Below, piece after piece: positions 4,531-63,030 of a stretch of 64,000 bases of DNA. Each line of letters starts with the position of its first letter. Position 1 is the first letter of the stretch. The DNA comes from Patescibacteria group bacterium (GTDB taxonomy: Bacteria > Patescibacteriota > Patescibacteriia > Patescibacteriales > WJLG01): contig JBAZHE010000001.1 of NCBI GenBank assembly GCA_041652555.1, positions 66,847 through 130,846 on the forward strand, read 5' to 3'. The position numbers and the translations under genes were made by a program. The notes below the pieces were generated by a model that was not told where the DNA came from, did not search any database, and was given only the letters and a program-made list of their open reading frames with translations.

Positions 4531-4596
4531 GCTGGCGAAGGCTGGTATCCAGTTTTACATAAGGACTATGGATCCCGGCCTTCGCCAGGATGACAC
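4524..4596. repeat. dRS3/NIME-like palindromic element, divergent copy (a)
   Basis: gtgtcatGCTGGCgaagGCTGGTatccag - 17 nt - ggatCCCGGCcttcGCCAGGatgacac. The left and right halves are mutually complementary. Confidence 0.7.
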
Positions 4597-25160: not shown

Positions 25161-25189
25161 TTGACTTTTTTATAAAAGTGTGATATGGT
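25161..25189 (+). promoter_or_regulatory. Promoter TTGACT-17-TATGGT with TG extension
   Basis: ctaTTGACTttttt...gtgTGaTATGGT. Near-duplicate of the promoter at 26229. Confidence 0.55.
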
Positions 25190-25250
25190 TTACTGTTTAG
25201 AGCAGTACCTTAAAATTAGAAAATCAACAATAACAATGAGGAGTTCTCTT

Positions 25251-33500: not shown

Positions 33501-33529
33501 TGTCATTCCTGCGGAGGCGGGAATCCAGC
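33501..33529. repeat. Solo half of the dRS3/NIME-like element, copy (b)
   Basis: gtgtcattcctgcggaggcgggaatccag, just after the rpsI stop. Confidence 0.7.
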
Positions 33530-39340: not shown

Positions 39341-39525
39341 TAGGGAGTATATTTAAAGAATTATTTTATGCTTTAACTGTTTTCTTGGTGGTTTTAGCGG
39401 TTTTAGAGTTGCTTTTTTCTCGGATGGTGTTGGCTTATATTAATTTAAGCTATTTGTTGCTCGTCTGGCTGATAATTGGTATAATTTTATTAGTAATATC
39501 AAAGAAAAAGTTGTCATCCCCGTGA
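39325..39525 (+). CDS. Small two-TM membrane protein (hypothetical)
   Basis: 66-aa ORF with two hydrophobic helices. Its last codons run into repeat element (c). Confidence 0.4.
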   Translation: MINDKLGSIFKELFYALTVFLVVLAVLELLFSRMVLAYINLSYLLLVWLIIGIILLVISKKKLSSP

Positions 39526-39594
39526 AAACGGGGATCCAGAATTTTTTACAGCAACGCTCGAACACTGGATTCCCGCCTACGCGGGAATGACACA
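39512..39594. repeat. dRS3/NIME-like element, copy (c)
   Basis: tgtcatCCCCGtgaaaaCGGGGatccag - 27 nt - ctggatTCCCGCctacGCGGGAatgaca. Confidence 0.85.
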
Positions 39595-40124: not shown

Positions 40125-40203
40125 TTTTTACCTCCCTTATTTGATTGTTAAAGACCGTAAAGATACTATATTTATACCGTATTTTATTAACTTTGTCAAT
40201 ATT

Positions 40204-42920: not shown

Positions 42921-45614
42921 ATGGAAATGTCACATCATTTAAGCGAAAAAAGGTTGGATAAGATTTTTAATCCGCAGACTATTGCGGTTATTGGTGCTTC
43001 TGATAAACAGGGCGGAGTTGGCAATGCTTTGATGAAAAATTTGATTGGTAATAATTATCAAGGGATTGTTTATCCGGTTAATCCTAATCGTGAAAGCGTG
43101 CAGGGGATTAAAGCTTATGTGAAGGTTTCGGATATTCCGGACAAGATTGATTTGGCAATTATTTGTACTCCGGCGGTGACTGTGCCGGCGATTGTTGAGG
43201 AGTGTGGTCAGGCTGGGGTTTCCGGTTTGGTTATTATTTCTTCTGGTTTTGATGAAATTGGCGAGAAGGGCAAAAAAATGAGTGAAGAAATTTTGTCTAT
43301 CGCTAACACTTATAATATGCGCGTAGTTGGGCCGAATTGCCTTGGCTTTATTCGTCCGTCAATCAATCTTAATGCTAGCTTTGCCAACAAAATGGCTTTG
43401 CCCGGGCATATTGCTTTTATTTCTCAATCAGGGGCGCTTTGTACTTCTATTCTTGACTGGTCAGTAAAAAATAATGTTGGTTTTTCTCATTTTGTTTCAA
43501 TTGGTTCTAATATTGATATTTCTTTTCATGATTTGATTGATTATTTCGGTGATGATCCAGAGACTGATAGTATTTTGATTTATATGGAGTCTTTGAAAGA
43601 GGCGCGAAAGTTTATGAGTGCGGCGCGGGCGTTTTCTCGTAAAAAACCAATTGTAGTTTTGAAAGTTGGACGCACTGAGGCTGGTTCTCGTGCAGCTAAG
43701 TCGCATACTGGAGCGATTACTGGTAATGATTCGGTTTATGATGCGGCCTTTGAACGTGCTGGCATTATTCGTGTTGATGGTGCTTTGGAACTTTTTCATG
43801 TAGCAAAAAGTTTGGCTATGCAAAAACGCCCACTTGATAATCGTGTGGCGGTAATTACTAATGCTGGTGGTCCTGGTGTTATTGCGGCTGATCGTTTGGC
43901 CTTAAAAGGTGGGCGTTTAGCAGAGCTGTCACATAAGACAGTTGAAGCTTTAAAAAATATTTTGCCGGCATCCGCTTCCACTGTTAATCCAGTTGATATT
44001 TTGGGTGATGCTGATTCTTTGCGTTATCGTCAGGCCGTGGAATTATGCTTAGAAGACTCTGGAGTTGATGCAGCTTTGATAATTTTGACACCGCAAGAAA
44101 TGACTAGCCCGACTGATGTAGCGCGGCAAATTGTTTCGGTCCAAAACAAAAAAGGTAAAATGATTTTTGCTTCTTGGATGGGTGGCGACGATGTAGCTGA
44201 AGGGCGGGTGATTTTGGAGCAAGGAAATATTCCAATATATAGAACGCCAGAAGAGGCGGTTGATATTTTTATGTATGTTGATAGTTACCGCAAACGTTTG
44301 GAATTTTTGAAAGAAACTCCAGGGTCTATTCCACATGCTTTTAAACCAAAAACTGAGGCAAATAAAAAATTAATTGAAAAAGTTGTTGCTTCTGGGCGAA
44401 CGGTTTTGACTGAAATTGAAGCTAAAGAAATGATTGCTAATTACGGAATTCCAGTAGCAAAAAATGGTGTCGCCAATTCGGCTACCGAGGCTGGAGAGAT
44501 TGCTGAAAAAACAGGCTTCCCAGTAGTGATGAAAATTCTTTCGCCTGATATTTTACACAAGACTGACATTGGCGGTGTAAAATTAAATATTAATTCTAAA
44601 GCCGAAGCAGAAAAGGCTTACAAAGAAATAATAGCGGGCGCGAAAAAGGGCGCACCTAAGGCAAAAATCGATGGCGTATTTATTGAGGTAATGACCAAGA
44701 AGCGCTACGAGCTTTTGATTGGTTGTAAGAAGGATGAGGTTTTTGGCCCGGCGATTGTTTTTGGTATGGGTGGTGTGGCCGTGGAAGTTTTTCGTGATAC
44801 AGCGGTTGGTTTGCCACCGTTGAATATGTCTCTGGCTTTAAAAATGATTCAAGAAACAAAAATTTATAAATTATTAAAAGGTTATCGCGGAATGCCTGGA
44901 GTTGATATTCCCGCAATTCAATTTTTGCTTTATAAATTTGCTTATTTGGTAAGTGATTTTCCGGAGATAAAAGAATTAGATATTAATCCTTTTGCGGTTG
45001 ATGAAAAGGGTGGTGTGGTTTTGGATGCTAAAGTTATTTTGGATGAAAAAGTTTTAGGCGTAAAACATAAACCTTATTCACATCTGGTAATTTCTCCTTA
45101 TCCTCGCGAGTATGAGAAGAAGATTGTTCTAGAAAATAAGAAAAATATTTTAATTCGTCCGATTCGTCCAGAAGATGAAGATTTAGAAATGGAGATGATA
45201 AATAATTTTTCTGCTACCACGATGCGTGATAGGTTTTTAGGTAAAGTTAAAAAAGTTAATTTGGAAATGTTGCGTGGTTTTACGCAAATAGATTATGATC
45301 GTGAAATTGCTTTGGTTGCAGAAACAGAGGAACGCAAAAAGAAAAAATTTGTTGGTGTTGTGCGTTTGGCTATTGACCCATACAATGAATCCGCCCTGTT
45401 AACAATCGCTCTAGTTGACTCCTGGCAAGAAATGACTTTAGGCAGTGAAATGATTGATTATATGTTAGACATTGCCCGCGCTCGAGGCGTGAAAAAAGTT
45501 TGGATGGAATTTTTTCCAACTAATAAAAGAATCATAAAAATCCTAACCAAACGCAATTTTACAATGAAAGAAAAGGGGAGTATTATGGTTGGAGAGTTGG
45601 AATTAGAAGACTAA
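42921..45614 (+). CDS. Pat-type protein lysine acetyltransferase (ADP-forming acyl-CoA synthetase-like domains fused to C-terminal GNAT)
   Basis: 897 aa: CoA-binding N-terminus (IAVIGASDK), ATP-grasp middle, GNAT-like C-terminus (IRPIRPEDE...VGVVRL...). Confidence 0.85.
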   Translation: MEMSHHLSEKRLDKIFNPQTIAVIGASDKQGGVGNALMKNLIGNNYQGIVYPVNPNRESVQGIKAYVKVSDIPDKIDLAIICTPAVTVPAIVEECGQAGVSGLVIISSGFDEIGEKGKKMSEEILSIANTYNMRVVGPNCLGFIRPSINLNASFANKMALPGHIAFISQSGALCTSILDWSVKNNVGFSHFVSIGSNIDISFHDLIDYFGDDPETDSILIYMESLKEARKFMSAARAFSRKKPIVVLKVGRTEAGSRAAKSHTGAITGNDSVYDAAFERAGIIRVDGALELFHVAKSLAMQKRPLDNRVAVITNAGGPGVIAADRLALKGGRLAELSHKTVEALKNILPASASTVNPVDILGDADSLRYRQAVELCLEDSGVDAALIILTPQEMTSPTDVARQIVSVQNKKGKMIFASWMGGDDVAEGRVILEQGNIPIYRTPEEAVDIFMYVDSYRKRLEFLKETPGSIPHAFKPKTEANKKLIEKVVASGRTVLTEIEAKEMIANYGIPVAKNGVANSATEAGEIAEKTGFPVVMKILSPDILHKTDIGGVKLNINSKAEAEKAYKEIIAGAKKGAPKAKIDGVFIEVMTKKRYELLIGCKKDEVFGPAIVFGMGGVAVEVFRDTAVGLPPLNMSLALKMIQETKIYKLLKGYRGMPGVDIPAIQFLLYKFAYLVSDFPEIKELDINPFAVDEKGGVVLDAKVILDEKVLGVKHKPYSHLVISPYPREYEKKIVLENKKNILIRPIRPEDEDLEMEMINNFSATTMRDRFLGKVKKVNLEMLRGFTQIDYDREIALVAETEERKKKKFVGVVRLAIDPYNESALLTIALVDSWQEMTLGSEMIDYMLDIARARGVKKVWMEFFPTNKRIIKILTKRNFTMKEKGSIMVGELELED

Positions 45615-45616
45615 TT

Positions 45617-45691
45617 TGTCATTCCCGTAAAAACGGGAATCTAGGATTCTGCGTGATAAAGCTGGATTCCCGCCTTCGTGGGAATGACACA
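45617..45691. repeat. dRS3/NIME-like element, copy (d)
   Basis: tgtcatTCCCGtaaaaaCGGGAatctag - 19 nt - ctggatTCCCGCcttcGTGGGAatgaca. Ends 6 nt before the murJ ATG. Confidence 0.85.
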
Positions 45692-53308: not shown

Positions 53309-53389
53309 TGTCATCCCCGCGAAGGCGGGAATCTAGTAAGTTTACAAAGTGCTCGCACTCTGGATTCCCGCTTTCGCGGGAATGACACA
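53309..53389. repeat. dRS3/NIME-like element, copy (e)
   Basis: tgtcatCCCCGCgaagGCGGGAatctag - 27 nt - ctggatTCCCGCtttcGCGGGAatgaca. Ends 8 nt before the rnhA ATG. Confidence 0.85.
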
Positions 53390-53823: not shown

Positions 53824-53850
53824 AAAATCATCTCCTGAGGAGGGTATTTA

Positions 53851-53880
53851 AAAACAACGACTTTTAGGTCGTTGTTTTTT
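53851..53880. terminator. Bidirectional hairpin terminator
   Basis: aaaacaacgac ttttag gtcgttgtttttt. Confidence 0.8.
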
Positions 53881-53887
53881 CGTTTTT

Positions 53888-54838
53888 TTATTCAGCGTTT
53901 AATTTATATTTTTCAATATTCCCATCCGCTATTTTTTGTAATAATCTTATTTCTTCTTTGCCGGCTTCGCTTTTAAATAGATGTTTGAAGCGGGCTTGGG
54001 GTTTTAGGTATTCTTCTACGCTGATTTTTTCTTTTATTTTTGAAGCCTTAATAAGTTGGCCGTTTTCAAATTCTAAAAGGGGATAGAGTCCTGTTTGTGC
54101 GGCTAATTTACCAAGGCTCATTGCTGAATCAGTGGCAATGCCCCAGCCGGGAACGCAAGGTGCCATAATTTGGATATATGACGGTCCGCCTAGTTCTAGA
54201 GCGCGTTTTACTTTACGCGTAATATCTTCCGGATAGCCGGCGGTTGATTGAGCGATATATTTTAAGCCATGTGCTTGCGCGATAGCAATCATATCTTTTT
54301 TTCTTTGGGCTGAACCGATTGATTCGGCTCCGGCTGGTGTGGTAGCGGTTGAAGCACCTGGTTGAGTGGCACCTGAGGCTTGATAGCCGGTGTTGGAATA
54401 AATTTCTGTGTCATAGCAGATATAAAGAAAGTCATCACCGCGTTCCCAGGCGCCGGAAATGAGTCCAATCCCGATATCGAAAGTCGCGCCATCACCACCT
54501 TGGGCTATAACATTTATTTTTTCGGGAATTTGGCAAGTGCCGGATTTTTTATTACCAGAACATTTCTTTTTGTAATCAAGAGCCGCTCTAATACCCGAAG
54601 CCAATGATGAGGAATTTTCAAAAATGGAATGGATCCAAGGAATTTTCCAAGCTGATTCCGGATAAGGCGTAGTCGTCACTTCTAAACAGCCGGTGGCATT
54701 AGTAATAATAGTGTTTGGCCCAAAGCCACGCGAAGCGGACATAGCAGCAATCATCTGTCCACAGCCAGCGCAAGCTCTGTGTCCGGGAGCGATTAAAACA
54801 TCGCCGAGTTTTGGTTTTATAAGATTATCTGTTTTCAT
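53888..54838 (-). CDS. porB: 2-oxoacid (pyruvate):ferredoxin oxidoreductase, beta subunit (TPP-binding)
   Basis: GHRACAGCG and GDGATFDIG motifs. Confidence 0.9.
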   Translation of the reverse strand: MKTDNLIKPKLGDVLIAPGHRACAGCGQMIAAMSASRGFGPNTIITNATGCLEVTTTPYPESAWKIPWIHSIFENSSSLASGIRAALDYKKKCSGNKKSGTCQIPEKINVIAQGGDGATFDIGIGLISGAWERGDDFLYICYDTEIYSNTGYQASGATQPGASTATTPAGAESIGSAQRKKDMIAIAQAHGLKYIAQSTAGYPEDITRKVKRALELGGPSYIQIMAPCVPGWGIATDSAMSLGKLAAQTGLYPLLEFENGQLIKASKIKEKISVEEYLKPQARFKHLFKSEAGKEEIRLLQKIADGNIEKYKLNAE

Positions 54839-54846
54839 AAATTTTA

Positions 54847-56034
54847 TTAATTACAAACGTGGAAATGATTTTTTCCACCAGCATCTTCACCGGTTTCGGT
54901 TTGGTCGCATTTTATATTTTTATTATAAGTATTACAATTGCATTTATCTCCAGGATAACATTCATATAAAATATTTAGATTAGCATCTTTAAAAGTCGTA
55001 TATATTTTTTCTATAGTTTCTATATCTTCTTCTTTTTTGGAAGACATAATACCTCTTATTGGTGTAACCATATCAATGCAAGTTCCGTTTTTATGCCCTA
55101 AAGAGGAATGGTTGACTGTTGGTGGCCAAGCTTCTGTTATTTCTAATTTTATATCACCAATGTTATTATGAGCTTCTAATAATTTTTGATAAAAAGAATT
55201 TGCAACTTGGCAACTTTTTTGCGGGTATTTACAGGAGAAATTAGAAAGTAATCCAGTTATAGTTGTTGGTTCTTCACAGGCCATACAGCTTATTAAGTAA
55301 TCCGTGCAACCAGCTGGTAGTGGCGCGCAACAGCAGATAGCATCATCTTTTTTACCATCTTCAGAACATACGTCATTAATATTTTTCCATCCATCGCCGG
55401 CAGTAGCGCAAGTCTTGTCGAAGTTAGAGGATTTTGTTGTTGTTTTGGCTATATAGTCACTGTCTGTTAATGTTGTCCATTTACAAAGATGATTACTAGC
55501 ATTTTTCGCTGTTTTAACATTTGGTTTTTGAATTTTTGTTACGTTTAATTCTGTTAGTGCCGGGTTTATTTGTTGCAAGATCAGCCAGGAGGCCATTACT
55601 AAGACCAACCCTGAAAGAGAGGCGAAAATTATTTCTTTGGCTTCACCGATGGATGAGGCGTTACCGCCGGCTAAAATCCAGCGGAAGCCACCGACCATCA
55701 ACATTATGGCCGCCAATATTCCGACAATGCCAACCGCGTAATTGTAAATAGCTTTAACATAATCGGCGATTGGTTTGGTGTCGCCGGTATTAAAAGTTAC
55801 CACGCCCTCTTTTCCAAGGCCTGGAATCGGCACTTGCATTGTATAAGTAATCGGTTCGTTTTTAGCCGCATAAGCCATTTCCGGTGCACTCAAAGAAAGT
55901 CCCAGACTGAAAGCCTGCACCATCGCGATAACCGCGAAAGAGTAAGCAAAGAAGCGAGGGAAAGAAAAAAACTTTTTGTGCTTTTTTTTCTTTTTTAGAA
56001 AAGGAAAGATTTTTTTAAGTTTAAATTTTAACAT
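54847..56034 (-). CDS. Fusion protein: TrbC/VirB2-like pilin-type N-terminal domain, Cys-rich linker, and a LAS-type (M15-like) zinc peptidase motif set
   Basis: Two TM helices flank GGNASSIGEAK...QINPAL (pilin-like). The C-terminus has HKNGTCID (Hx6D) and HFH (HxH). Confidence 0.65.
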   Translation of the reverse strand: MLKFKLKKIFPFLKKKKKHKKFFSFPRFFAYSFAVIAMVQAFSLGLSLSAPEMAYAAKNEPITYTMQVPIPGLGKEGVVTFNTGDTKPIADYVKAIYNYAVGIVGILAAIMLMVGGFRWILAGGNASSIGEAKEIIFASLSGLVLVMASWLILQQINPALTELNVTKIQKPNVKTAKNASNHLCKWTTLTDSDYIAKTTTKSSNFDKTCATAGDGWKNINDVCSEDGKKDDAICCCAPLPAGCTDYLISCMACEEPTTITGLLSNFSCKYPQKSCQVANSFYQKLLEAHNNIGDIKLEITEAWPPTVNHSSLGHKNGTCIDMVTPIRGIMSSKKEEDIETIEKIYTTFKDANLNILYECYPGDKCNCNTYNKNIKCDQTETGEDAGGKNHFHVCN

Positions 56035-56038
56035 AAAC

Positions 56039-57187
56039 CTATTTTATTATTTTTCTTAAATTTTCTTTAGTAATATCTTTTCCTCCTAAACCGACAACTA
56101 CGCCGTTAATGATTGCGGTAGTTTTTCCATAAAGAGCGGATTTTACTTCAGTCTCTAATATTCCGCCAAGACCCAGGGAAATAGATTTTTCTAAAACAAT
56201 TATTTTTTTGGCATTAGTTTTTTTGATAACAGCCAAAATTTCTTCGGCCGGAAATGGTCTAAATGTTCTTAATTTTAAAACTCCTGTTTTATTTTTGAAA
56301 ACGCCGGATTTTTTATTTTCTTCATCAATAGTTTCTTTTATAGTTCCAATTACCGAGCCTAAAGAAATAACAACAGTCTTTGCTTTAGTTGGGCCGTAAT
56401 ATTCGACTAGGCCATTATCATAACTTGAAATATTTTTTTCTTGCGGATTAAATATTTTTTGTAATTTTATCCATTCTGATTTTATTAATTCTTTAGAATC
56501 TAGAATTTTTTGATTAAGCTCTAGGCGCATTTCTTGATAGTGAGTAGGTGTGACAAGTGTGCCGAGCGAGCGCGGGTTAGCCGGATCAAGATAAGTTCCG
56601 TTCTTTGGCTTATAGTCAGGCAAGAATTTTTTAATATTTTTTTCTTCAGGAATAGAAACTTCTTCGTAGGAATGTGTTAAAACAAAACCATCAACATTTA
56701 CAAAAGCCGGAACGGAAATTTTTTCGGCGATTTTGTAAGCTAGTAAGTGTTGAAAAACCGCTTCTTGATGATTCTCGGCAAAAAAAGACAACCAGCCGGC
56801 ATCGCGAACAGACATAATGTCTTGCTGGTCATTCCAAATATTTATCGGCGCGCCAATCGCGCGGTTAGCACAAGTGATAACAATCGGCAATTGCATTCCA
56901 GCGATATTATAGATAACCTCGGTCATTAATAATAATCCTTGAGAGCTAGTAGAAGTGTAGGTGCGGACGCCAGAAGCGGAAGCACCCAAAACAATAGAGG
57001 CGGCGGCAAATTCGCTTTCAGCGCGTAATAATTCATAATCAGCAATTCCTTCAGCTTTGAAACGCGCCAAATCTTCCACAATATGAGTTTGTGGCGTAAT
57101 CGGATAAGCGGAAATAACAGCCGGGCGGATATTTTTTATAGTTAAGGCAATAGCACGACTGCCTTCTAATATTTGAGGTTTAGACAT
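56039..57187 (-). CDS. porA: 2-oxoacid (pyruvate):ferredoxin oxidoreductase, alpha subunit
   Basis: MSKPQILEGSRAIA...YPITPQT. The start is set at 57187 because the 30-codon ORF-track extension is a read-through of repeat (f). Confidence 0.9.
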   Translation of the reverse strand: MSKPQILEGSRAIALTIKNIRPAVISAYPITPQTHIVEDLARFKAEGIADYELLRAESEFAAASIVLGASASGVRTYTSTSSQGLLLMTEVIYNIAGMQLPIVITCANRAIGAPINIWNDQQDIMSVRDAGWLSFFAENHQEAVFQHLLAYKIAEKISVPAFVNVDGFVLTHSYEEVSIPEEKNIKKFLPDYKPKNGTYLDPANPRSLGTLVTPTHYQEMRLELNQKILDSKELIKSEWIKLQKIFNPQEKNISSYDNGLVEYYGPTKAKTVVISLGSVIGTIKETIDEENKKSGVFKNKTGVLKLRTFRPFPAEEILAVIKKTNAKKIIVLEKSISLGLGGILETEVKSALYGKTTAIINGVVVGLGGKDITKENLRKIIK

Positions 57188-57198
57188 ATAAGAATAGG

Positions 57199-57277
57199 TG
57201 TCATCCCCGCGAAGGCAGGGATCCAGAAATTTGTTTAGTACTTGCACTCTGGATTCCCGCCTTCGCGGGGATGACAA
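57199..57277. repeat. dRS3/NIME-like element, copy (f), inside the por operon
   Basis: tgtcatCCCCGCgaagGCAGGGatccag - 24 nt - ctggatTCCCGCcttcGCGGGGatgaca. Confidence 0.85.
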
Positions 57278-57288
57278 AAATGTTTTTT

Positions 57289-57555
57289 TTATTTTTTTTC
57301 TATTTCCATTTTAATGCATTTCACTGGGCACTCGGCGGCGCAAAGTCCGCAGCCTTTGCAGAAATCGTAATCGGTTTGCGGCTTATTTTTACCCTCGGCG
57401 TTAGCTTTCATTTTTACGCAATTTTCCGGACAAACCAAAGCACAACGACTACAGCCAATGCAAACGTCTAAATCAGTTTTTGGTATATAAGTTCTCCAAT
57501 CGCCAGTTTTATTTATAATAGTAGAGCCTGGAGCAATAGTTAAGTCTAGTGTCAT
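57289..57555 (-). CDS. porD: 2-oxoacid:ferredoxin oxidoreductase, delta subunit (2x[4Fe-4S] ferredoxin)
   Basis: CIGCSRCALVCP and CKGCGLCAAECP cluster motifs. Confidence 0.9.
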   Translation of the reverse strand: MTLDLTIAPGSTIINKTGDWRTYIPKTDLDVCIGCSRCALVCPENCVKMKANAEGKNKPQTDYDFCKGCGLCAAECPVKCIKMEIEKK

Positions 57556-57582
57556 ATTTAAGTTTTCTAAATTAATTAGCTA

Positions 57583-57603
57583 AAATGATAAATGATAAAT
57601 GAT
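57583..57603. repeat. Tandem heptamer (AAATGAT)x3, same unit as at 39316
   Basis: aaatgataaatgataaatgat, between porG and porD. Confidence 0.8.
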
Positions 57604-57634
57604 GGATAAAAAAATAAATAAAATTTATCATTAA

Positions 57635-58195
57635 TCATTGTTTATAGATTTTTTCTATAGCTTGAATATTTTTATTAACTATCTCTTTACCTTTTTCTTC
57701 AAATTTTGTTTTGATGGCTTTTTTTAGGCCGTCAATGCTTATCGTGTTTCCTGTTTTAGCTAAAAGTCCCAGGATTGTGGTGTTAGCCAGATTGCGACCA
57801 AGAATTTCTATAGCGATTTTTGAAGCATCAGCGGCAAAAATATTTTTTTCCGGTATAGGCTTTTTTTCTTTTCCAAAAGTCATCTTTAAATCTTTAATTG
57901 GCTGGGAAGTGTTGACGATTACCATAATATTTTTTTCGCAATCAGCCGCTAAATTCATACCTAATAAAGTTGAGTCAAGGATTATCAAAATATCCGGACG
58001 ATAAACTTGTTCGCGGGTGCGGATTGGCTTATCGTCAATCCTCGCAAAAGCTTGAATCGGCGCGCCGGTTCTTTCCACGCCAAAAGACGGAAAAGCCTGG
58101 GCTTGTTTGCCGTCTTCATAGGCGGCGATGGCAATTAATTCGGCGGCCGTCACCACTCCTTGTCCGCCACGGCCGTGCAGTCTAATTTGTATCAT
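57635..58195 (-). CDS. porG: 2-oxoacid:ferredoxin oxidoreductase, gamma subunit
   Basis: IRLHGRGGQGVVTAA is typical of the gamma subunit. Confidence 0.9.
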   Translation of the reverse strand: MIQIRLHGRGGQGVVTAAELIAIAAYEDGKQAQAFPSFGVERTGAPIQAFARIDDKPIRTREQVYRPDILIILDSTLLGMNLAADCEKNIMVIVNTSQPIKDLKMTFGKEKKPIPEKNIFAADASKIAIEILGRNLANTTILGLLAKTGNTISIDGLKKAIKTKFEEKGKEIVNKNIQAIEKIYKQ

Positions 58196-58835
58196 ATGTT
58201 TCTAATAATTTATCAACTATTAATTTCCAATTTTCTAAAGAAATATCGCCTTTTACTATATAACTATTAACGAAAGATGTTGGCGTTCCGGAAACTTCAA
58301 GAGCAATAGCTTCATCATCATCTTTTTTGATTTGTTCTTTATAATATTCTCCTTTATAACATCGATCAAAACGCGCTTGGTCGGCGCCAATAGCGGAAAG
58401 TTGGGCGGAAAAATTAGCTACATTCACATTTTCTTGATTAAAAAATAGCTCATCATGTATTGGCCAAAATAATCCTTGTTCTCCAGCACAGCGGGCGGCT
58501 AGCGCTAAGGCATAGGAATTGTTGTGTCCAATATAATCCTTGTAAACTATTTTTAATTTTCCTGGATATAAAGCGCGCAAAGTTTCTAAAGTGGTGGCGG
58601 AATTTTTGCAATATGGACATTCAAAGTCGGAAAATTCTATAATCGTTATAGCTGGCTTGGCTGAACCGATCCAAAAATTTCCTTCAATGGAAACATCGTA
58701 TTTTCTAGCTTCTTGATTTTCGGAAATAGGAATTTTTATGAATCGTGCGACCAGGGCGCTTAGCAAAAGAACGGCGAAAAATATTATAATCACCAGTTTC
58801 TTGTGGTTGTGTTTTTCCATTGTTTCTTCGGCCAT
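58182..58835 (-). CDS. DsbA-like thiol:disulfide oxidoreductase, membrane-anchored
   Basis: TM anchor and FSDFECPYCKN CxxC motif. Confidence 0.85.
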   Translation of the reverse strand: MAEETMEKHNHKKLVIIIFFAVLLLSALVARFIKIPISENQEARKYDVSIEGNFWIGSAKPAITIIEFSDFECPYCKNSATTLETLRALYPGKLKIVYKDYIGHNNSYALALAARCAGEQGLFWPIHDELFFNQENVNVANFSAQLSAIGADQARFDRCYKGEYYKEQIKKDDDEAIALEVSGTPTSFVNSYIVKGDISLENWKLIVDKLLETYDTN

Positions 58836-58891
58836 AAAAAGATATAATAAAGATAGTTAAATTATATCATCATTAGCTAAGTTCTCCAAAT

Positions 58892-59924: not shown

Positions 59925-59958
59925 TTTTTATTAAAAATTGATTACGGTGAACAGTTTA

Positions 59959-59987
59959 GCGGAGTGTTTTTACCCTCCGTTTTTTTA
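59959..59987 (+). terminator. Rho-independent terminator
   Basis: gcggag ... ctccg followed by tttttttt. Confidence 0.65.
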
Positions 59988-59988
59988 T

Positions 59989-60017
59989 TTGCTTTTTTGT
60001 TATTTTTGGGATAGAAT
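59989..60017 (+). promoter_or_regulatory. Putative leuS promoter
   Basis: TTGCTT, 17 nt, TAGAAT. Confidence 0.45.
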
Positions 60018-60054
60018 ATTTCTATCAACACGCTTTAATATTAGTCATAATTAT

Positions 60055-63030
60055 ATGGAAAAATATAATCACTTAGAAATAGATAAAAAATGGCAAAAGG
60101 CTTGGGAGGAAGAAGGGGTTAATAAAACCGGAGAAGATCAAGCTAAGCCAAAATATTATGTTTTAGATATGTTTCCTTATCCGTCAGGAGCTGGTTTGCA
60201 CGTTGGTCATCCTAAAGGGTATATTGCGACTGATATTTTGGCACGCTATAAAATGATGAATGGTTTTAATGTGTTGCATCCTATGGGTTGGGATGCTTTT
60301 GGTTTGCCAGCAGAAAATTATGCTTTAAAAAATAAAGTTCATCCAAAAGTTCAGACAGAAGAGAATATCGCCACTTATAAGAAGCAATTGGAAAAAATTG
60401 GTATGTCTTATGACTGGAGTAGAGAAATTAATACAACTGACCCAGAATATTATAAATGGACACAATGGACTTTTATTAAAATGTGGGAAAAAGGTCTGGC
60501 TTTTGAATCATTTGAGCCAATTATTTGGTGTCCAAAATGTCAGACTGGTTTGGCTATGGAGGACTTGGAAGATGGTAAATGTGAACGTTGTGAATCAGAA
60601 ATAGAACGCAAGCCAATGCGTCAGTGGGTAATAAAGATAACCGATTACGCTGATAGACTTTTAGCTGATTTGGATAAATTGCCGGGCTGGGAAGATTCTA
60701 TTAAAGAAATGCAACGCAATTGGATTGGAAGATCAGAAGGCGCAGAAATTAACTTTGTCATTGCGAGCGAAGCGAAGCAATCCCGAGGCGAGAGCAACGA
60801 CATTAAGGTTTTCACCACTCGTCCTGATACGCTATTCGGCTGCACCTATGTCGTTATTGCTCCCGAGAAGCTAGTAGATTTAAAATTAGAAATTAAAAAT
60901 AAAGCTGAGGTTGATGAATATATTAAAAAAACTAAGGCTAAATCTGATTTGGAGCGGACTGATTTGAATAAAGATAAAACTGGTGTGAAATTAGAAGGTG
61001 TAATGGCGATTAATCCAGCTAATGGTGAAGAAGTCCCAGTGTTTATTGCTGATTATGTTTTGGCTGGTTATGGCACCGGCGCCGTAATGGCAGTACCAGC
61101 TCATGATGAGCGCGATTTTGAATTTGCCAAAAAATATGATTTGCCAATTAAAAATGTTATTGAGCCGGAATTTGGTGAAAAAAGAGAGAATGAAGAGTTT
61201 AGGAATAGGATTGTTGCCGTGGTGTATAATCCTAAAAATAATAAAGTTTTAACTTTAAATTGGGGAGATAAGTTTGGTGGCTATTTAAATGTTGGAGGAG
61301 GAATAGAAGAAGGGGAAAGTCCTGAACAGGCGGCACGTCGAGAAATTTTAGAAGAGACAGGTTATAAAAATCTTAAATTAGTTAATCAATCAGAAAAAGT
61401 TCGTCATCATTTTATCGCTTATAATAAAGGCGTGAATCGGGGTACGGAAATTATTGGTTTATTTTTTGAATTAATTGATGAATTGGCTGACGCACAAAGT
61501 CTATCTCCTGAAGAGGAAGGAAAATTTGAGTTGGAATGGTTATTGGCTTCTGAAGTTAAAAATAAAATTATAGACCCTTGTCATAATTATTTAGTGGATA
61601 AGTTTATTAATGATGTTGCTTTTACTGGAAATGGTTTTAATGTTAATTCTGATTTTTTGAATGGTTTGTCGACTGCTGAAGCGAAGGTGAAAATAGTTGA
61701 GTGGCTAGAAAAAGAAGGTAAGGGGAAGAAAAAGGTTAATTATAAATTGAATGATTGGGTTTTTTCTCGTCAGCGTTATTGGGGTGAGCCGATTCCTTTT
61801 GTGCATTGTGAAAAATGTGGCGTTGTGCCAGTGGCGGAAAAGGATTTGCCAGTGCGTTTGCCGGATGTTGAACATTACGAGCCGTCTGGAACAGGGGAAT
61901 CACCTTTGGCAAATATTACTGATTGGGTAAATACTACTTGCCCAAAATGTGGTGGGAAGGCTAAACGCGAAACTAATACTATGCCACAATGGGCTGGTTC
62001 GTCTTGGTATTATTTGCGCTACATTGATTCAAAAAATTCTGAAAGCTTAGTTGATAAAGAAAAAGAAAAATATTGGTCGCCAGTTGATTTTTATGTTGGT
62101 GGTGCTGAGCATGCCACACGTCATTTAATTTACGCCCGTTTTTGGCATAAATTTTTATTTGATATTGGTGTAGTAAATTATGAAGAACCGTTTACTAAAT
62201 TGCAACACGTCGGTTTAATAATGGCTGAAGACGGTAGAAAAATGTCTAAACGCTGGGGTAATGTCATTAATCCTGATGACATTATCGCACAATACGGTGC
62301 CGATGCGATGCGTGTTTACGAAATGTTTATGGGCCCATTCGGTCAGTCTTGTGCTTGGAATACTAACGGTTTAGTCGGAGCACGAAAATTTTTGGATAAA
62401 ATAAATGATTATGTTGATAGTTGGAAAGTTGAATATAAAGAAGGAGAAGTTCATGAAAGCAAGGACACAGTTATTGATAAAAAAAATAGTTTAATAGAAA
62501 AAACTATAAAAAAAGTAGGCGAGGATATTGTTGAATTTAAATTTAATACCGCTATTAGTCAAATGATGATTTGTTGGAATTATATTCGTGCGGAAGAAAA
62601 GAAGAACTTGCCGAATGGAGCTGAATATTCCGAAACTTTAGAACGTATTATTACTAAAAAGCAGTTAGGAAAACTTATTCAAATTCTTGCGCCTTTTGCT
62701 CCGCATTTAGCTGAAGAAATTTGGCGTAATAAATTGGGCAACAAGCAAAGTATTTTTGTGTCAGAGTCCCCTTCGGGAGACCATAATAAGACGGTGATGT
62801 CTGTTTGGCCTGAATATGACCCAGAATTAATAAAAGATGATATAGTTAATTTGGTTGTGCAGATCAATGGTAAGCTTCGTGCTACTATTGAAGTGGCAGC
62901 AGATATTTCTGAAGAAGATGCAAAAAAATTAGCTCAAGAAAATGATAACATTAAAAAATGGTTAGAAGGAAAAGAAATTATAAAAATAATTTTCATTCCA
63001 GGCAAGCTTCTTAATATTGTAGTGAAATAA
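60055..63030 (+). CDS. leuS: Leucine--tRNA ligase with an inserted Nudix hydrolase domain
   Basis: HVGHPKGY (HIGH), KMSKR (KMSKS), CP1 editing TTRPDT...AVPAHDERDFEFA, then the Nudix box GGIEEGESPEQAARREILEETGY. ATG at 60055. Confidence 0.95.
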   Translation: MEKYNHLEIDKKWQKAWEEEGVNKTGEDQAKPKYYVLDMFPYPSGAGLHVGHPKGYIATDILARYKMMNGFNVLHPMGWDAFGLPAENYALKNKVHPKVQTEENIATYKKQLEKIGMSYDWSREINTTDPEYYKWTQWTFIKMWEKGLAFESFEPIIWCPKCQTGLAMEDLEDGKCERCESEIERKPMRQWVIKITDYADRLLADLDKLPGWEDSIKEMQRNWIGRSEGAEINFVIASEAKQSRGESNDIKVFTTRPDTLFGCTYVVIAPEKLVDLKLEIKNKAEVDEYIKKTKAKSDLERTDLNKDKTGVKLEGVMAINPANGEEVPVFIADYVLAGYGTGAVMAVPAHDERDFEFAKKYDLPIKNVIEPEFGEKRENEEFRNRIVAVVYNPKNNKVLTLNWGDKFGGYLNVGGGIEEGESPEQAARREILEETGYKNLKLVNQSEKVRHHFIAYNKGVNRGTEIIGLFFELIDELADAQSLSPEEEGKFELEWLLASEVKNKIIDPCHNYLVDKFINDVAFTGNGFNVNSDFLNGLSTAEAKVKIVEWLEKEGKGKKKVNYKLNDWVFSRQRYWGEPIPFVHCEKCGVVPVAEKDLPVRLPDVEHYEPSGTGESPLANITDWVNTTCPKCGGKAKRETNTMPQWAGSSWYYLRYIDSKNSESLVDKEKEKYWSPVDFYVGGAEHATRHLIYARFWHKFLFDIGVVNYEEPFTKLQHVGLIMAEDGRKMSKRWGNVINPDDIIAQYGADAMRVYEMFMGPFGQSCAWNTNGLVGARKFLDKINDYVDSWKVEYKEGEVHESKDTVIDKKNSLIEKTIKKVGEDIVEFKFNTAISQMMICWNYIRAEEKKNLPNGAEYSETLERIITKKQLGKLIQILAPFAPHLAEEIWRNKLGNKQSIFVSESPSGDHNKTVMSVWPEYDPELIKDDIVNLVVQINGKLRATIEVAADISEEDAKKLAQENDNIKKWLEGKEIIKIIFIPGKLLNIVVK
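60756..60801. repeat. 46-bp palindromic element in-frame within leuS
   Basis: tgtcattgcgagcgaagcgaagcaatcccgaggcgagagcaacgaca. The ends tgtcattgc/gcaacgaca are inverted. Translated as VIASEAKQSRGESND. Confidence 0.6.

What the first reader, a model, noticed from the sequence alone, without database searches (positions are those of the whole stretch)
53888..58195. Pilin-like / LAS-peptidase fusion gene wedged inside the porGDAB operon
The minus-strand operon runs porG (57635..58195), porD (57289..57555), porA (56039..57187), an extra 395-aa gene (54847..56034), then porB (53888..54838). The extra gene is separated from its neighbours by only 4 and 8 nt, which suggests co-transcription or translational coupling. 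Its N-terminal 170 aa resemble the TrbC/VirB2-type pilin domain common in CPR genomes. These comprise a basic leader, a hydrophobic helix, then GILAAIMLMVGGFRWILAGGNASSIGEAKEIIFASLSGLVLVMASWLILQQINPAL. A Cys-rich linker follows, and the C-terminal domain carries HKNGTCID (Hx6D) and a terminal HFH. That is the zinc ligand pattern of LAS/M15 cell-wall peptidases. A surface or cell-wall-active protein embedded between the catalytic subunits of a central metabolic enzyme is unexpected.
Basis: partly seen in the sequence, partly recalled or inferred. Interest (0 to 1): 0.55.

Follow-up and report, generated by a model that had tools for sequence, protein, structure and literature searches.

The report
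Wall-cutting "pilin" inside a metabolic operon
A gene lying between two subunits of a pyruvate-oxidising enzyme in an ultra-small (Patescibacteria) bacterium encodes an exported membrane protein that joins a secretion-pilus-like anchor to a zinc peptidase domain resembling the animal Hedgehog signalling domain; this odd placement is ancient and shared by dozens of related species, and it hints at how these bacteria cut cell walls.

Summary
On the minus strand lie dsbA-like (58182-58835), porG, porD, porA, a 395-aa gene (54847-56034) and porB, with gaps of 4 and 8 nt around the extra gene.

- Residues 89-154 match Pfam T4SS_pilin above the curated cut-off.
- The C-terminal domain is a LAS zinc-peptidase fold. 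A family profile hits Sonic hedgehog N-domain (E 1e-9). An AlphaFold model (pLDDT 85) has 34 Hedgehog N-domains as its top PDB matches, followed by MepA, VanY-type and L-Ala-D-Glu peptidases.
- H314-x6-D321, E358 and H390-F-H392 are present.

The gene is not a recent insertion. In 54 of 55 species-representative loci holding both porA and porB, one to three pilin-like genes lie between them, and a DsbA gene lies upstream. Six loci lack por genes but keep dsbA plus the pilin array.

Across these arrays the same N-terminal module carries interchangeable peptidoglycan-hydrolase domains: NlpC/P60, SLT, 3D, VanY, M15, lysozyme, amidase and Hedgehog-like.

Best reading: a Sec-exported, disulfide-rich, surface-displayed peptidoglycan peptidase on a VirB2-like carrier, co-transcribed with por. 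I found no description of this in the literature searched.

The parts
58861..58888 (-). Best promoter-like site upstream of dsbA (TGGAGA, 16 nt, TG-TATAAT); candidate start of the whole transcription unit
   Evidence: 10 of 12 consensus matches with an extended -10 TG, ending 26 nt before the dsbA ATG. This is a consensus match only. The total number of promoter-like sites in the region (20) is not above the shuffled expectation (15.6 +/- 4.5).
58182..58835 (-). DsbA-like, membrane-anchored thiol:disulfide oxidoreductase (217 aa, N-terminal TM helix, FECPYCK active site); its stop overlaps the porG start by 14 nt
   Evidence: Thioredoxin_4 1.9e-24, DSBA 1e-17. Sequence. A DsbA gene lies upstream in most related loci, including six that lack por genes.
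57635..58195 (-). porG/porC, gamma subunit of a four-subunit 2-oxoacid (pyruvate-type):ferredoxin oxidoreductase
   Evidence: PF01558 7.7e-38; TIGR02175 182 bits (cut-off 81).
57289..57555 (-). porD, delta subunit (2x[4Fe-4S] ferredoxin-like)
   Evidence: Fer4_21; TIGR02179 PorD_KorD 85 bits (cut-off 60).
57200..57280 (.). Palindromic dispersed repeat (two ~25-nt inverted arms, GTCATCCCCGCGAAGGCGGGAATCC / GGATCCCTGCCTTCGCGGGGATGAC) in the porD-porA gap; a passenger element, possibly an mRNA hairpin
   Evidence: Sequence; 9 copies of the core in the window against 0.11 expected, all of them outside the ORFs of at least 200 aa listed (7 of the 9 abut the end of such an ORF).
56039..57187 (-). 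porA, alpha subunit
   Evidence: POR_N 2.2e-66, PFOR_II 4.2e-22; best NCBIfam hit PorA_Arch 2.8e-122.
54847..56034 (-). The extra gene: 395-aa VirB2-like / Hedgehog-type LAS peptidase fusion protein
   Evidence: An identical protein is deposited at NCBI as 'MAG: pilin [Patescibacteria group bacterium]'.
55867..56034 (-). Residues 1-56: basic leader (KKKKKHKK), hydrophobic h-region (28-51) and a predicted signal-peptidase I site P51-x-x-A54-Y-A56 | A57
   Evidence: hydropathy. A56 is invariant, and P51 and A54 are conserved in at least 90% of 13 homologues. Cleavage itself is inferred.
55534..55776 (-). Residues 87-167: T4SS_pilin (VirB2-like) module, a hairpin of two hydrophobic helices (93-124, 134-156) joined by the loop RWILAGGNASSIGEAK
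   Evidence: PF18895, 37.5 bits. (own profile, 145 bits). (helices 87-121 and 126-156; hydropathy).
55210..55494 (-). Residues 181-275: Cys-rich region (11 Cys, including CCC 234-236) that packs onto the peptidase core
   Evidence: Cys positions. (pLDDT 68-94 in this region of the domain model). (several Cys conserved across the family).
54850..55209 (-). Residues 276-395: Hedgehog/DD-peptidase-type LAS zinc peptidase core. Motifs: TEAWPP 300-305, H309, H314-x6-D321 (codons 55093-55095 and 55072-55074), E358 (54961-54963), H390-F-H392 (54859-54867). A ~30-residue Cys-containing insert lies between E358 and HFH.
   Evidence: profile against PDB: Shh E 1.3e-9. (hhalign 95.9%). (AF2 pLDDT 85, top 34 Foldseek hits are Hedgehog N-domains, then MepA and VanY-type enzymes). 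(in 72 family members: D321 72/72, E358 72/72, H314 71/72, H309 69/72).
53888..54838 (-). porB, beta (TPP / Fe-S) subunit
   Evidence: TPP_enzyme_C 8.7e-15; best NCBIfam hit PorB 1.2e-94.
53850..53879 (.). 13-bp hairpin flanked by A/T runs between the convergent genes porB and rnhA; likely bidirectional terminator ending the unit
   Evidence: reported on the + strand; the stem is flanked by T runs in both orientations.

Best explanation
The 395-aa gene encodes a modular envelope protein.

1. Export (inferred): a basic leader with an A-x-A site sends it through Sec.
2. Anchoring (inferred): a VirB2-like hairpin of two hydrophobic helices holds it in the membrane with the C-terminus outside. Alternatively the hairpin hands it to a T4SS-type assembly machine.
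3. Folding (inferred from conserved linkage): the 215-residue C-terminal region is extracytoplasmic and folds with disulfides, probably made by the DsbA encoded at the head of the same gene string.
4. Catalysis (fold and residues shown; chemistry inferred from homology): the C-terminal core is a Hedgehog/DD-peptidase-type LAS zinc enzyme. H314, D321 and H392 would bind zinc, E358 would act as general base and H309 would assist. It would cut a peptide bond in peptidoglycan stems or cross-links.
5. Family (shown): it is one allele of a polymorphic family. A constant VirB2-like module carries interchangeable wall-hydrolase domains.
6. Role (inferred): the enzyme most likely opens peptidoglycan at the cell surface or at the contact site with another cell. 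This could be the bacterium's own wall, for envelope machines, or the wall of a host bacterium. I lean towards outward use.
7. Expression (inferred): the gene is read with dsbA-porGDA and porB as one transcript. That position is an ancestral, fixed feature of a Falkowbacteria-level clade, not a functional part of the oxidoreductase.
For: Identity of the two modules:
- PF18895 matches above its cut-off.
- The profile of the C-terminal domain hits only Hedgehog N-domains in PDB (25 hits, best E 1.3e-9). hhalign gives 95.9%.
- The domain model has pLDDT 85.1 and pTM 0.81. Its top 34 Foldseek hits are Hedgehog N-domains with probability 1.00, followed by MepA, VldE, RB49 L-Ala-D-Glu peptidase, LdcB/VanY, VanXYc, ChiX and Ply500.
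- Catalytic residues are conserved in 72 relatives.

Topology: all 17 Cys lie after the hairpin. A DsbA gene with a CPYC motif overlaps porG and is kept next to the pilin arrays even in six loci without por genes.

Polymorphic hydrolase family: 118 of 119 array proteins carry T4SS_pilin. Their C-terminal domains include NLPC_P60 (7), SLT_3 (6), 3D (6), SLT (5), VanY (3), Phage_lysozyme (2), Peptidase_M15 (2), Amidase_5 (2), M15_4 (1) and Amidase_2 (1), plus Hedgehog-like domains in about 15 loci. In an exhaustive search, 127 of 145 new top hits to the Hedgehog-like profile also carry the pilin module.

Same domain type in a wall-piercing context: a phage protein with TEAWPP...H-x6-D...DHLH lies directly upstream of baseplate wedge genes.

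Ancient placement: 54 of 55 loci with porA and porB have 1-3 pilin genes between them. PorA is only 51-76% identical to the window's PorA across these loci.

Co-transcription: gaps of 4 and 8 nt, and no promoter or terminator signal above background.

Own wall present: MurJ is encoded in the window.
Against: - No enzymatic, localisation or transcript data exist.
- 'T4SS pilin' is a predicted function of the Pfam family. A profile of 119 array proteins finds no solved pilin. The mature protein (~340 aa) is far larger than any characterised VirB2. No T4SS genes were found among the 23 window ORFs of at least 200 aa scanned outside the operon; the other ORFs of that size were not scanned.
- The third zinc ligand (HFH) was not aligned to Shh H181/H183 by HMMER or hhalign, because of the ~30-residue insert. 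Its assignment rests on relatives without the insert (E-G-N/D-H-I-H) and on the fold match.
- Some relatives have lost ligands (for example P0007, with Q for H314 and HFS), so binding-only roles occur in the family.
- No immunity-like gene follows the gene here, which weakens a toxin reading.
- The synteny survey is biased. Loci were fetched by similarity to this pilin module, so the counts describe this orthologous group, not all Patescibacteria.
Confidence: 0.65

Rival explanations
1. Housekeeping autolysin. The VirB2-like hairpin is only a membrane anchor, and the peptidase trims or opens the bacterium's own wall (growth, division, insertion of pili or secretion machines). It would have no role in interactions with other cells and no pilus.
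For: The organism makes its own wall (MurJ). No adjacent immunity gene and no T4SS genes among the window ORFs scanned. Monoderm T4SS wall hydrolases such as PrgK and TraG are likewise membrane-anchored (background summarised in PMC12102498). The gene sits in a housekeeping operon.
Against: Orthologous positions carry many different hydrolase chemistries, and copy number varies from 1 to 4. That turnover is more typical of interaction genes than of a fixed housekeeping enzyme. The same domain subtype occurs in a phage baseplate-adjacent protein that acts from outside. VirB2-like arrays are essential for epibiotic growth in Saccharibacteria (PMC10633639).
Confidence: 0.3
2. Structural pilin or adhesin. 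The protein polymerises into, or caps, a T4SS-type pilus, and the Hedgehog-like domain binds a glycan or peptide ligand on the partner cell without catalysis (a pseudo-enzyme), as is argued for some Hedgehog proteins.
For: PF18895 membership. VirB2-like arrays are proposed to form pili in Patescibacteria (PMC12857230). Some family members have lost zinc ligands (Ser at position 390 in 21 of 72 and at 392 in 15 of 72). Modular type IV pilins that carry functional domains are known (PMC8179133).
Against: The window protein retains every catalytic residue, and D321 and E358 are invariant in 72 relatives. Sister array members carry unmistakable catalytic hydrolase domains. A 240-residue appendage on every subunit is hard to fit into a VirB2-type helical filament. 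No T4SS genes were found among the window ORFs scanned.
Confidence: 0.12
3. Functional partner of the oxidoreductase. The membrane protein tethers or regulates POR, or links it to a redox process through its many cysteines, which would explain why it sits between the alpha and beta subunits.
For: Tight spacing (4 and 8 nt) and conserved position between porA and porB in 54 of 55 loci.
Against: Six related loci have lost all por genes but keep dsbA plus the pilin array (L055, L057, L071, L075, L081, L082). One locus has porA and porB adjacent with the Hedgehog-like pilin gene after porB (L015). The C-terminal domains are swapped among unrelated wall hydrolases. The Cys-rich domain is predicted to be outside the cell, whereas POR is cytoplasmic. 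Other passengers (23S_rRNA_IVP, PDDEXK_3, small toxin-antitoxin-like pairs, a repeat element) also accumulate in gaps of this operon.
Confidence: 0.04
4. Recent strain-specific insertion of a mobile or foreign gene with its own promoter.
For: The GC content dips to 0.32 around the 3' end of the gene. A dispersed repeat element lies nearby.
Against: The arrangement is shared by dozens of species whose PorA is only 51-76% identical to the window's. Similar GC dips occur inside porA and porG. No integrase, repeat flanks or separate promoter or terminator bracket the gene.
Confidence: 0.02

Closest known systems
VirB2/TrbC-type T4SS pilins, specifically the Pfam PF18895 'T4SS_pilin' proteins and VirB2-like pilin arrays of Patescibacteria (Quinonero-Coronel et al. 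2025, PMC12102498; Wang et al. 2023, PMC10633639)
   Same: It matches PF18895 above the cut-off. It has a long leader with an A-x-A site, then two hydrophobic helices joined by a short loop. In relatives the genes occur as tandem arrays of divergent paralogues, as described for Patescibacteria.
   Different: The mature protein is about three times larger, because a 240-residue enzyme region is fused to the C-terminus. It is not next to virB4 or any other T4SS gene among the window ORFs scanned, but lies inside a por operon. No similarity to solved pilins is detectable by sequence. The papers read do not mention hydrolase fusions or a por location.
Hedgehog N-terminal signalling domain / 'Hh/DD-peptidase' family, MEROPS M15A-like (Roelink 2018, PMC6027127); LAS enzymes (lysostaphin, D-Ala-D-Ala carboxypeptidase, Sonic hedgehog)
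   Same: H-x6-D and H-x-H zinc motifs. The catalytic Glu corresponds to Shh E177, and the His to Shh H135. The TE(G/A)W strand is shared. The predicted fold superposes on ShhN, IhhN and DhhN (TM 0.45-0.53 normalised to the target, rmsd about 3 A over 110-152 columns).
   Different: Only about 20% identical to Shh, whereas the 'bacHh' proteins of Roelink are over 50% identical. The Ca2+-binding Asp residues of Shh (D130, D132) are Pro and Thr here. A ~30-residue Cys-containing insert separates the Glu from HFH. A Cys replaces Ala in H-x2-G-x-(A/C)-x-D. An extra Cys-rich N-terminal sub-domain is present. There is no Hint/autoprocessing domain. Pfam HH_signal does not detect the window protein.
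T4SS-associated peptidoglycan hydrolases: VirB1 of diderms; PrgK, TraG(pIP501) and TcpG of monoderm conjugation systems
   Same: Envelope-located, often membrane-anchored wall hydrolases that open peptidoglycan for a secretion or pilus apparatus. Several catalytic types (SLT, CHAP/NlpC-P60, M23) are used.
   Different: Those enzymes are not fused to the pilin, and they are encoded in the T4SS cluster. Here the hydrolase is fused to the VirB2-like module. This may explain the statement in PMC12102498 that most Patescibacteria with VirB2 homologues lack a recognisable VirB1.
Modular pilins of type IV pili (e.g. PilB of Streptococcus sanguinis, PMC8179133) and polymorphic toxin/effector systems (constant N-terminal delivery module plus variable C-terminal domain; T6SS Tae/Tge wall-degrading effectors)
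   Same: A constant N-terminal trafficking or assembly module carries swappable C-terminal functional domains. Diversity is concentrated in the C-terminus, and the genes form tandem arrays of variants.
   Different: The carrier is VirB2-like, not a class III-signal type IV pilin or a T6/T7/CDI delivery domain. No cognate immunity gene is present in this window. Delivery into another cell is not shown.
Four-subunit pyruvate:ferredoxin oxidoreductase operons (porGDAB) of archaea, Thermotogae and others
   Same: The four subunits are present and intact, in the canonical order gamma-delta-alpha-beta.
   Different: The alpha and beta genes are separated by one (elsewhere up to three or more) unrelated envelope-protein genes. 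A dsbA gene heads the string.

Membership tests
LAS / M15-type zinc peptidases | H-x(6)-D zinc-binding motif | tested here: met
   H314-KNGTCI-D321. Aligned to Shh H141...D148 by HMMER and hhalign. H is present in 71/72 and D in 72/72 relatives.
LAS / M15-type zinc peptidases | Third zinc ligand from an H-x-H (or E-x-x-H) motif near the C-terminus | tested here: met
   H390-F-H392 is present. In 72 relatives, position 392 is His in 57 and Ser in 15, and position 390 is His in 49, Ser in 21 and Ala in 2. Equivalence to Shh H181-I-H183 is inferred from insert-less relatives with E-G-(N/D)-H-I-H. The profile alignments stopped before the insert.
LAS / M15-type zinc peptidases | Catalytic glutamate (Shh E177 / VanX E181 equivalent) | tested here: met
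   E358 is aligned to Shh E177 and is invariant in 72 of 72 relatives.
LAS / M15-type zinc peptidases | LAS fold (central antiparallel sheet packed by helices, ligands converging on one cleft) | tested here: met
   AF2 domain model with pLDDT 85.1 and pTM 0.81. Foldseek against PDB: 34 Hedgehog N-domains with probability 1.00, then MepA (probability 0.90), VldE, RB49 peptidase, LdcB, VanXYc, ChiX and Ply500. Ligand geometry in the model was not measured.
LAS / M15-type zinc peptidases | Zinc binding and peptidoglycan peptidase activity | not testable with these tools
   Needs purified protein and muropeptide analysis.
LAS / M15-type zinc peptidases | Match to a curated M15 sequence model | tested here: not met
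   No Pfam or NCBIfam M15 hit for the window protein. Only one homologue (P0019) matches Peptidase_M15_3 (7.4e-7).
Hedgehog N-terminal signalling domain (Pfam HH_signal) / Hh-DD-peptidase subgroup | Match to the HH_signal model at the curated threshold | tested here: not met
   No hit for the window protein. Two of 13 homologues give weak hits (best E 0.039). Similarity appears only with a family profile or by fold.
Hedgehog N-terminal signalling domain (Pfam HH_signal) / Hh-DD-peptidase subgroup | Two-calcium site (Shh E90, E91, D96, E127, D130, D132) | tested here: not met
   In the hhalign alignment, TEAWPPTVNH pairs with TEGWDEDGHH. Only the E127 equivalent (E301) is kept; D130 and D132 correspond to P304 and T306.
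Hedgehog N-terminal signalling domain (Pfam HH_signal) / Hh-DD-peptidase subgroup | C-terminal Hint autoprocessing domain and lipid modification (animal Hedgehogs) | tested here: not met
   The protein ends 3 residues after HFH.
VirB2/TrbC-type T4SS pilin | Sequence membership in a pilin family model | tested here: met
   PF18895 T4SS_pilin at 37.5 bits against a cut-off of 26.6. 118 of 119 array proteins match. TrbC (PF04956) matches only weakly, in one homologue (E 0.43). NCBIfam Mbov_0395 pilin-like gives E 0.017, below its cut-off.
VirB2/TrbC-type T4SS pilin | Cleavable leader followed by two hydrophobic helices with a short connecting loop | tested here: met
   Hydropathy and predicted helices. 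Conserved P-x-x-A-x-A site. Cleavage itself was not tested.
VirB2/TrbC-type T4SS pilin | Small mature subunit (about 70-120 residues) able to pack into a helical pilus | tested here: not met
   The mature protein is about 339 residues with a globular 215-residue C-terminal region.
VirB2/TrbC-type T4SS pilin | Encoded with VirB4 and other T4SS components | tested here: not met
   The 23 window ORFs of at least 200 aa scanned outside the operon are housekeeping or other non-T4SS genes (22 have Pfam hits; one 496-aa ORF has none), and only one pilin-like ORF exists in 64 kb. The other ORFs of that size and the rest of the genome were not available or not scanned.
VirB2/TrbC-type T4SS pilin | Similarity to a solved conjugative pilin; polymerisation into a pilus | tested here: inconclusive
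   The profile of 119 proteins finds nothing in PDB at E <= 1. A helical hairpin is too simple for fold search to discriminate. Polymerisation is not testable here.
Polymorphic toxin/effector systems | Constant N-terminal module with variable C-terminal catalytic domains among paralogues and orthologues | tested here: met
   One search finds ten Pfam hydrolase families behind one N-terminal module. One search adds the Hedgehog-like type. In one search, 127 of 145 Hedgehog-like proteins carry the module, and others are large proteins (up to 1622 aa) with the domain at the C-terminal end.
Polymorphic toxin/effector systems | Cognate immunity gene immediately downstream | tested here: not met
   porB starts 8 nt after the stop. 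Small downstream ORFs occur in some related loci, but several look like unrelated toxin-antitoxin pairs.
Four-subunit pyruvate/2-oxoacid:ferredoxin oxidoreductase | Gamma, delta, alpha and beta subunits with TPP and Fe-S motifs | tested here: met
   Scores are below the NCBIfam equivalog cut-offs, so substrate (pyruvate or another 2-oxoacid) is not settled. The subfamily models PorC_KorC and PorD_KorD are passed.

The most novel reading that the evidence does not exclude
The VirB2-like 'pilin arrays' of Patescibacteria, whose role is described as unknown, would be carriers of a polymorphic arsenal of cell-wall hydrolases. The pilin-like module would deliver or display the enzyme on a T4SS-dependent filament or at the contact site, to breach the wall of the host bacterium. 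In the Falkowbacteria lineage this arsenal would be wired, together with its own disulfide-forming enzyme, into the pyruvate-fermentation operon, so that attack and feeding are expressed together. A corollary is that this large bacterial family (about 1000 clusters at 50% identity) is a previously unrecognised deep branch of the Hedgehog/DD-peptidase lineage.
Probability: 0.25. Interest if true: 0.8.

Novelty: new variant of a known kind. Interest (0 to 1): 0.6.

Why it matters
Patescibacteria are a large share of bacterial diversity and most appear to live attached to other microbes. How they breach and exploit their hosts is largely unknown. Their T4SS and VirB2-like pilin arrays are essential in the one species tested, but their function is called 'completely unknown' (PMC11665869).

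A natural fusion of the pilin-like module to at least eleven kinds of peptidoglycan hydrolase is a Rosetta-stone-type clue. It suggests that these modules work with, or deliver, wall-cutting enzymes. It may also explain why most of these genomes seem to lack VirB1.

The fusion gives concrete, testable proteins: a compact, well-predicted domain with clear active-site residues.

The Hedgehog-like domain adds a large, divergent bacterial branch to the family from which the animal morphogen domain derives.

The stable embedding of envelope genes between subunits of a central metabolic enzyme is an unusual example of operon architecture in reduced genomes, although it may simply reflect hitch-hiking on a well-expressed transcript.

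Tried and rejected
- Homologue search with the C-terminal 163 residues alone returned nothing, not even the identical database protein. This looks like a limitation of the word index. The exhaustive profile search replaced it.
- Single-sequence search of PDB with the full protein gave only a chance hit to a phage tail protein (E 0.77).
- Fold search with the full-length model (pLDDT 66.6) was dominated by spurious histidine-kinase matches to the hairpin plus alpha/beta arrangement. M15 enzymes appeared only weakly. A domain-only model with a 72-sequence alignment was needed.
- A profile of 119 array proteins found no solved relative of the N-terminal module.
A narrower alignment worked, but one of the three hits (L094) is a false positive in a ParB-like region. 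PHROGs has no family for the window protein or for the phage protein.
- I first read the 897-aa ORF at 42921-45614 as an ADP-forming acetyl-CoA synthetase completing a pyruvate-to-acetate pathway. Its C-terminal GNAT domain and its position next to Acs fit a Pat-type acetyltransferase better, so I do not use it as evidence for the pathway.
- The idea that POR needs the protein was rejected because related loci have lost por genes but kept the array.
- Record titles such as 'uncultured Gammaproteobacteria', 'Thermoplasmatales' or 'Saccharimonadales' for some loci conflict with their gene content and synteny. I treated them as mislabelled.

Full report
**1. The observation**

The ORF list and the sequence show, on the minus strand:
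- a 186-aa ORF (57635-58195);
- an 88-aa ORF (57289-57555);
- a 382-aa ORF from the ATG at 57187 to 56039;
- a 395-aa ORF (54847-56034);
- a 316-aa ORF (53888-54838).

Pfam and NCBIfam identify four of these as the gamma, delta, alpha and beta subunits of a four-subunit pyruvate-type 2-oxoacid:ferredoxin oxidoreductase. The 395-aa gene lies 4 nt after the porA stop, and its own stop lies 8 nt before the porB start.

Two things were not in the finding. The upstream gene (58182-58835) is a membrane-anchored DsbA-like oxidoreductase with a CPYC site, and its stop overlaps the porG start by 14 nt. The 101-nt porD-porA gap holds a palindromic repeat.

The promoter and terminator scan finds a good promoter-like site just upstream of dsbA (58861-58888). 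It also finds a strong hairpin after porB (53850-53879). Nothing between them rises above the shuffled background. The string dsbA-porG-porD-porA-X-porB therefore looks like one transcription unit. This is inferred, not shown.

**2. What the extra protein is**

Residues 89-154 match Pfam PF18895 (T4SS_pilin) at 37.5 bits against a cut-off of 26.6. Hydropathy and the structure predictions show three elements:
- a basic leader;
- a hydrophobic segment (28-51) ending in a conserved P-x-x-A-x-A site (A56 is invariant in 13 homologues);
- a hairpin of two long hydrophobic helices (93-124 and 134-156).

All 17 cysteines lie after the hairpin, at positions 184-394.

No curated model recognises the C-terminal part. 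A 12-sequence profile of it, however, hits only Hedgehog N-terminal domains among all PDB sequences: 25 hits, best Sonic hedgehog at E 1.3e-9. hhalign against ShhN gives 95.9% probability. That alignment pairs TEAWPPTVNH...GHKNGTCID...LYE with TEGWDEDGHH...LHYEGRAVD...YYE. The resulting equivalences are:
- H314 and D321 correspond to the Shh zinc ligands H141 and D148;
- E358 corresponds to the catalytic E177;
- H309 corresponds to H135.

The third ligand motif is the C-terminal H390-F-H392. In this subfamily it is separated from E358 by a ~30-residue Cys-containing insert. Relatives without the insert read E-G-(N/D)-H-I-H, which is essentially the Shh spacing.

A domain-only AlphaFold model (residues 181-395, 72-sequence alignment) has pLDDT 85.1 and pTM 0.81. 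Its 34 best Foldseek matches in the PDB are all Hedgehog N-domains (probability 1.00, rmsd about 3 A). These are followed by the bacterial and phage LAS enzymes MepA, VldE, RB49 L-Ala-D-Glu peptidase, LdcB/VanY, VanXYc, ChiX and Ply500.

Conservation in the 72 relatives is: D321 and E358 invariant, H314 in 71, H309 in 69. The Shh calcium-binding aspartates are not conserved.

The precise description is a divergent Hedgehog/DD-peptidase-type domain with an added Cys-rich sub-domain.

**3. How common the architecture is**

An exhaustive profile search of 1.84 billion representative proteins finds 998 clusters with this domain at E <= 1e-3, and 222 at E <= 1e-10. Of the 145 new proteins among the best 150, 127 also carry the pilin-like module. 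A few others are very large proteins with the domain at the extreme C-terminus.

One phage contig encodes a 462-aa protein ending in the same domain subtype (TEAWPP...HFTGNAID...DHLH). It lies directly upstream of baseplate wedge genes, which is the position of a virion wall-piercing enzyme.

**4. Surroundings in related genomes**

Homologues of the protein are all from Patescibacteria. Seven genomic contexts fetched by exact protein suggested that the position between porA and porB is conserved. I then scanned one genome per species. I annotated the 80 best loci with the window's own proteins and with my own profiles of the pilin module and the Hedgehog-like domain.

Results for the 80 loci:
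- 55 loci hold both porA and porB. Of these, 54 have one (36 loci) or two (18 loci) pilin-like genes between them, and 17 have a further one after porB. One locus (L015) has porA and porB adjacent, with the Hedgehog-like pilin gene after porB.
- 10 loci end after porA followed by a pilin gene.
- 7 show pilin gene(s) followed by porB.
- 6 have no por genes but keep dsbA followed by one to four pilin-like genes. In L071 this lies between the same flanking genes, exo and rnhA-recJ.
- 2 short loci have neither por genes nor dsbA.

The wider block exo | dsbA porGDA [pilins] porB | rnhA recJ is syntenic throughout. PorA is 51-76% identical to the window's (median 59%) and DsbA 28-58%. Many records are named Candidatus Falkowbacteria.

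The arrangement is therefore old and fixed, and the array content turns over in place.

One caveat applies. The loci were retrieved through the pilin module, so these numbers describe this orthologous group, not Patescibacteria as a whole.

**5. The array proteins are a polymorphic set of wall hydrolases**

Pfam on 119 array proteins gives T4SS_pilin in 118. Behind it are NLPC_P60 (7), SLT_3 (6), 3D (6), SLT (5), VanY (3), Phage_lysozyme (2), Peptidase_M15 (2), Amidase_5 (2), Peptidase_M15_4 (1) and Amidase_2 (1). The Hedgehog-like type occurs in about 15 loci. All array proteins are 197-500 aa, so none is a bare pilin.

This is the strongest argument that the C-terminal domain of the window protein acts on peptidoglycan. 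It also suggests that the N-terminal module is a common carrier or anchor.

**6. Mechanism proposed, with status of each step**

- Co-transcription with dsbA and por: inferred from spacing and the absence of signals.
- Sec export and leader cleavage: inferred from conserved sequence features.
- Hairpin in the membrane with the C-terminal region outside: inferred from VirB2 topology, from the exclusive location of Cys residues, and from the linked DsbA.
- Oxidative folding by the co-encoded DsbA: inferred from linkage that survives loss of por.
- Zinc-dependent peptidase chemistry: fold and residues shown, activity inferred.
- Target is peptidoglycan: inferred from the sister domains and the phage homologue.
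- Own wall or host wall, and any involvement of a T4SS or pilus: open.

The window encodes MurJ, so the cell has its own wall. No T4SS genes were found among the 23 window ORFs of at least 200 aa scanned outside the operon, and the other ORFs of that size were not scanned. The window holds only this one pilin-like ORF.

**7. Why inside the por operon?**

The evidence argues against a functional partnership with the enzyme:
- por genes can be lost while the array and dsbA remain;
- the C-terminal domains are interchangeable;
- the protein's active part is outside the cell;
- other passengers (23S_rRNA_IVP, PDDEXK_3, small toxin-antitoxin-like pairs, a repeat element) also settle in gaps of this operon.

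The simplest reading is an ancestral insertion or rearrangement that became fixed. Expression from a strong, constitutive metabolic transcript would be harmless or useful. A regulatory link between feeding state and envelope attack is possible but untested.

**8. Comparison with what is known**

VirB2-like pilin arrays in Patescibacteria are published: 441 arrays in 383 assemblies (PMC12102498). They are essential in Southlakia epibionticum (PMC10633639) and are discussed as potential pili in a monoderm (PMC12857230). The role of the T4SS is called completely unknown (PMC11665869).

The papers read do not mention C-terminal hydrolase fusions or a por location. [quoted passage not shown] The fusions found here link these observations.

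The Hedgehog/DD-peptidase family, including bacterial members, is described by Roelink (PMC6027127). Those bacterial proteins are over 50% identical to Shh and keep the calcium site. The family here is about 20% identical and lacks that site. Full-text searches for Hedgehog with candidate phyla radiation, and for Falkowbacteria with pilin, found nothing relevant.

NCBI already labels the identical protein 'pilin'. Pfam's SLT_3 family co-occurs with T4SS_pilin in some of the array proteins scanned here.

**9. Verdict**

The protein is a new variant of known kinds: a VirB2-like module, a LAS peptidase and a modular or polymorphic effector architecture. It sits in a conserved and apparently undescribed genomic setting.

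It is of moderate-to-good interest. It offers a concrete hypothesis for the function of Patescibacteria pilin arrays, and it adds a large divergent branch to the Hedgehog/DD-peptidase family. Every functional step beyond fold and residues remains inferred.

Noticed in passing
window 4575-4590, 33506-33521, 39517-39587, 45669-45684, 53314-53382, 57204-57271: A dispersed REP/MITE-like palindromic element (core TCCCCGCGAAGGCGGG, usually as two inverted arms about 50 nt apart). It has 9 matches against 0.11 expected by chance, all outside the ORFs of at least 200 aa. The sites include the recJ-rnhA and porD-porA gaps.
   Followed up: partly
window 59938-63030 (+): The leucyl-tRNA synthetase ORF (1030 aa) carries a complete NUDIX hydrolase domain inserted at residues 422-552, directly after the editing domain (Pfam NUDIX 1.1e-14). 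It also has a short 'ASEAKQSRG' stretch that looks repeat-derived.
   Followed up: partly
window 22682-25147 (+): A UvrD/PcrA-type helicase (821 aa) has an RNase_T (DEDD 3'-5' exonuclease) domain inserted at residues 468-620, inside the UvrD_C domain.
   Followed up: no
window 40141-42171 (+) and 42921-45614 (+): An AMP-forming acetyl-CoA synthetase lies next to an 897-aa protein with CoA_binding, Succ_CoA_lig, ATP-grasp_5 and a C-terminal GNAT domain. This is the architecture of Pat-type protein acetyltransferases that regulate Acs, unexpected regulatory complexity for a reduced genome.
   Followed up: no
L003 4175-4522, L007 3400-3759, L010 7652-8038, L004 2306-2698, L004 7064-7494, L010 7080-7616, L008 9455-9969: In related genomes the gaps of the dsbA-por-pilin operon collect small passenger genes. 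These are 23S_rRNA_IVP four-helix-bundle proteins, a PDDEXK_3 nuclease and pairs of ~71-aa proteins. From memory only (not scanned), the pairs resemble DUF4258/DUF2283 toxin-antitoxin pairs.
   Followed up: partly
L005 7138-7566, L007 7139-7570, L008 8828-9436: A conserved 142-202-aa protein with an N-terminal TM helix and a C-terminal '...GINFGLSFCPNGKPF' motif follows the pilin-SLT_3 genes in several arrays. It could be an accessory or immunity factor. No Pfam family matches, and it is absent from the window.
   Followed up: no
L092 3909-5297 (IMG/VR contig IMGVR_UViG_3300023296_000874, 257 kb): A high-GC jumbo-phage protein (462 aa) ends in the same TEAWPP-type Hedgehog-like LAS domain. It sits immediately upstream of baseplate wedge genes, so it is a likely virion-associated wall-piercing enzyme. 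No PHROG family matches it.
   Followed up: partly
window 25185-26174 (+) and 18838-19803 (+), 17716-18651 (-): A second envelope hydrolase candidate (329 aa, SLT domain at 176-269) has no detectable pilin module. A second Thioredoxin_4 protein lies next to a thioredoxin-reductase-like flavoprotein.
   Followed up: no
window 37845-39335 (+): A 496-aa ORF directly downstream of ComEC has no Pfam match at E <= 1e-3.
   Followed up: no
L011-L090 record titles: Many of the syntenic Patescibacteria loci come from third-party MAG records titled 'uncultured Gammaproteobacteria bacterium' (one 'Thermoplasmatales archaeon', one 'Saccharimonadales'). These titles conflict with gene content and look like systematic mislabelling in the public records.
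   Followed up: no
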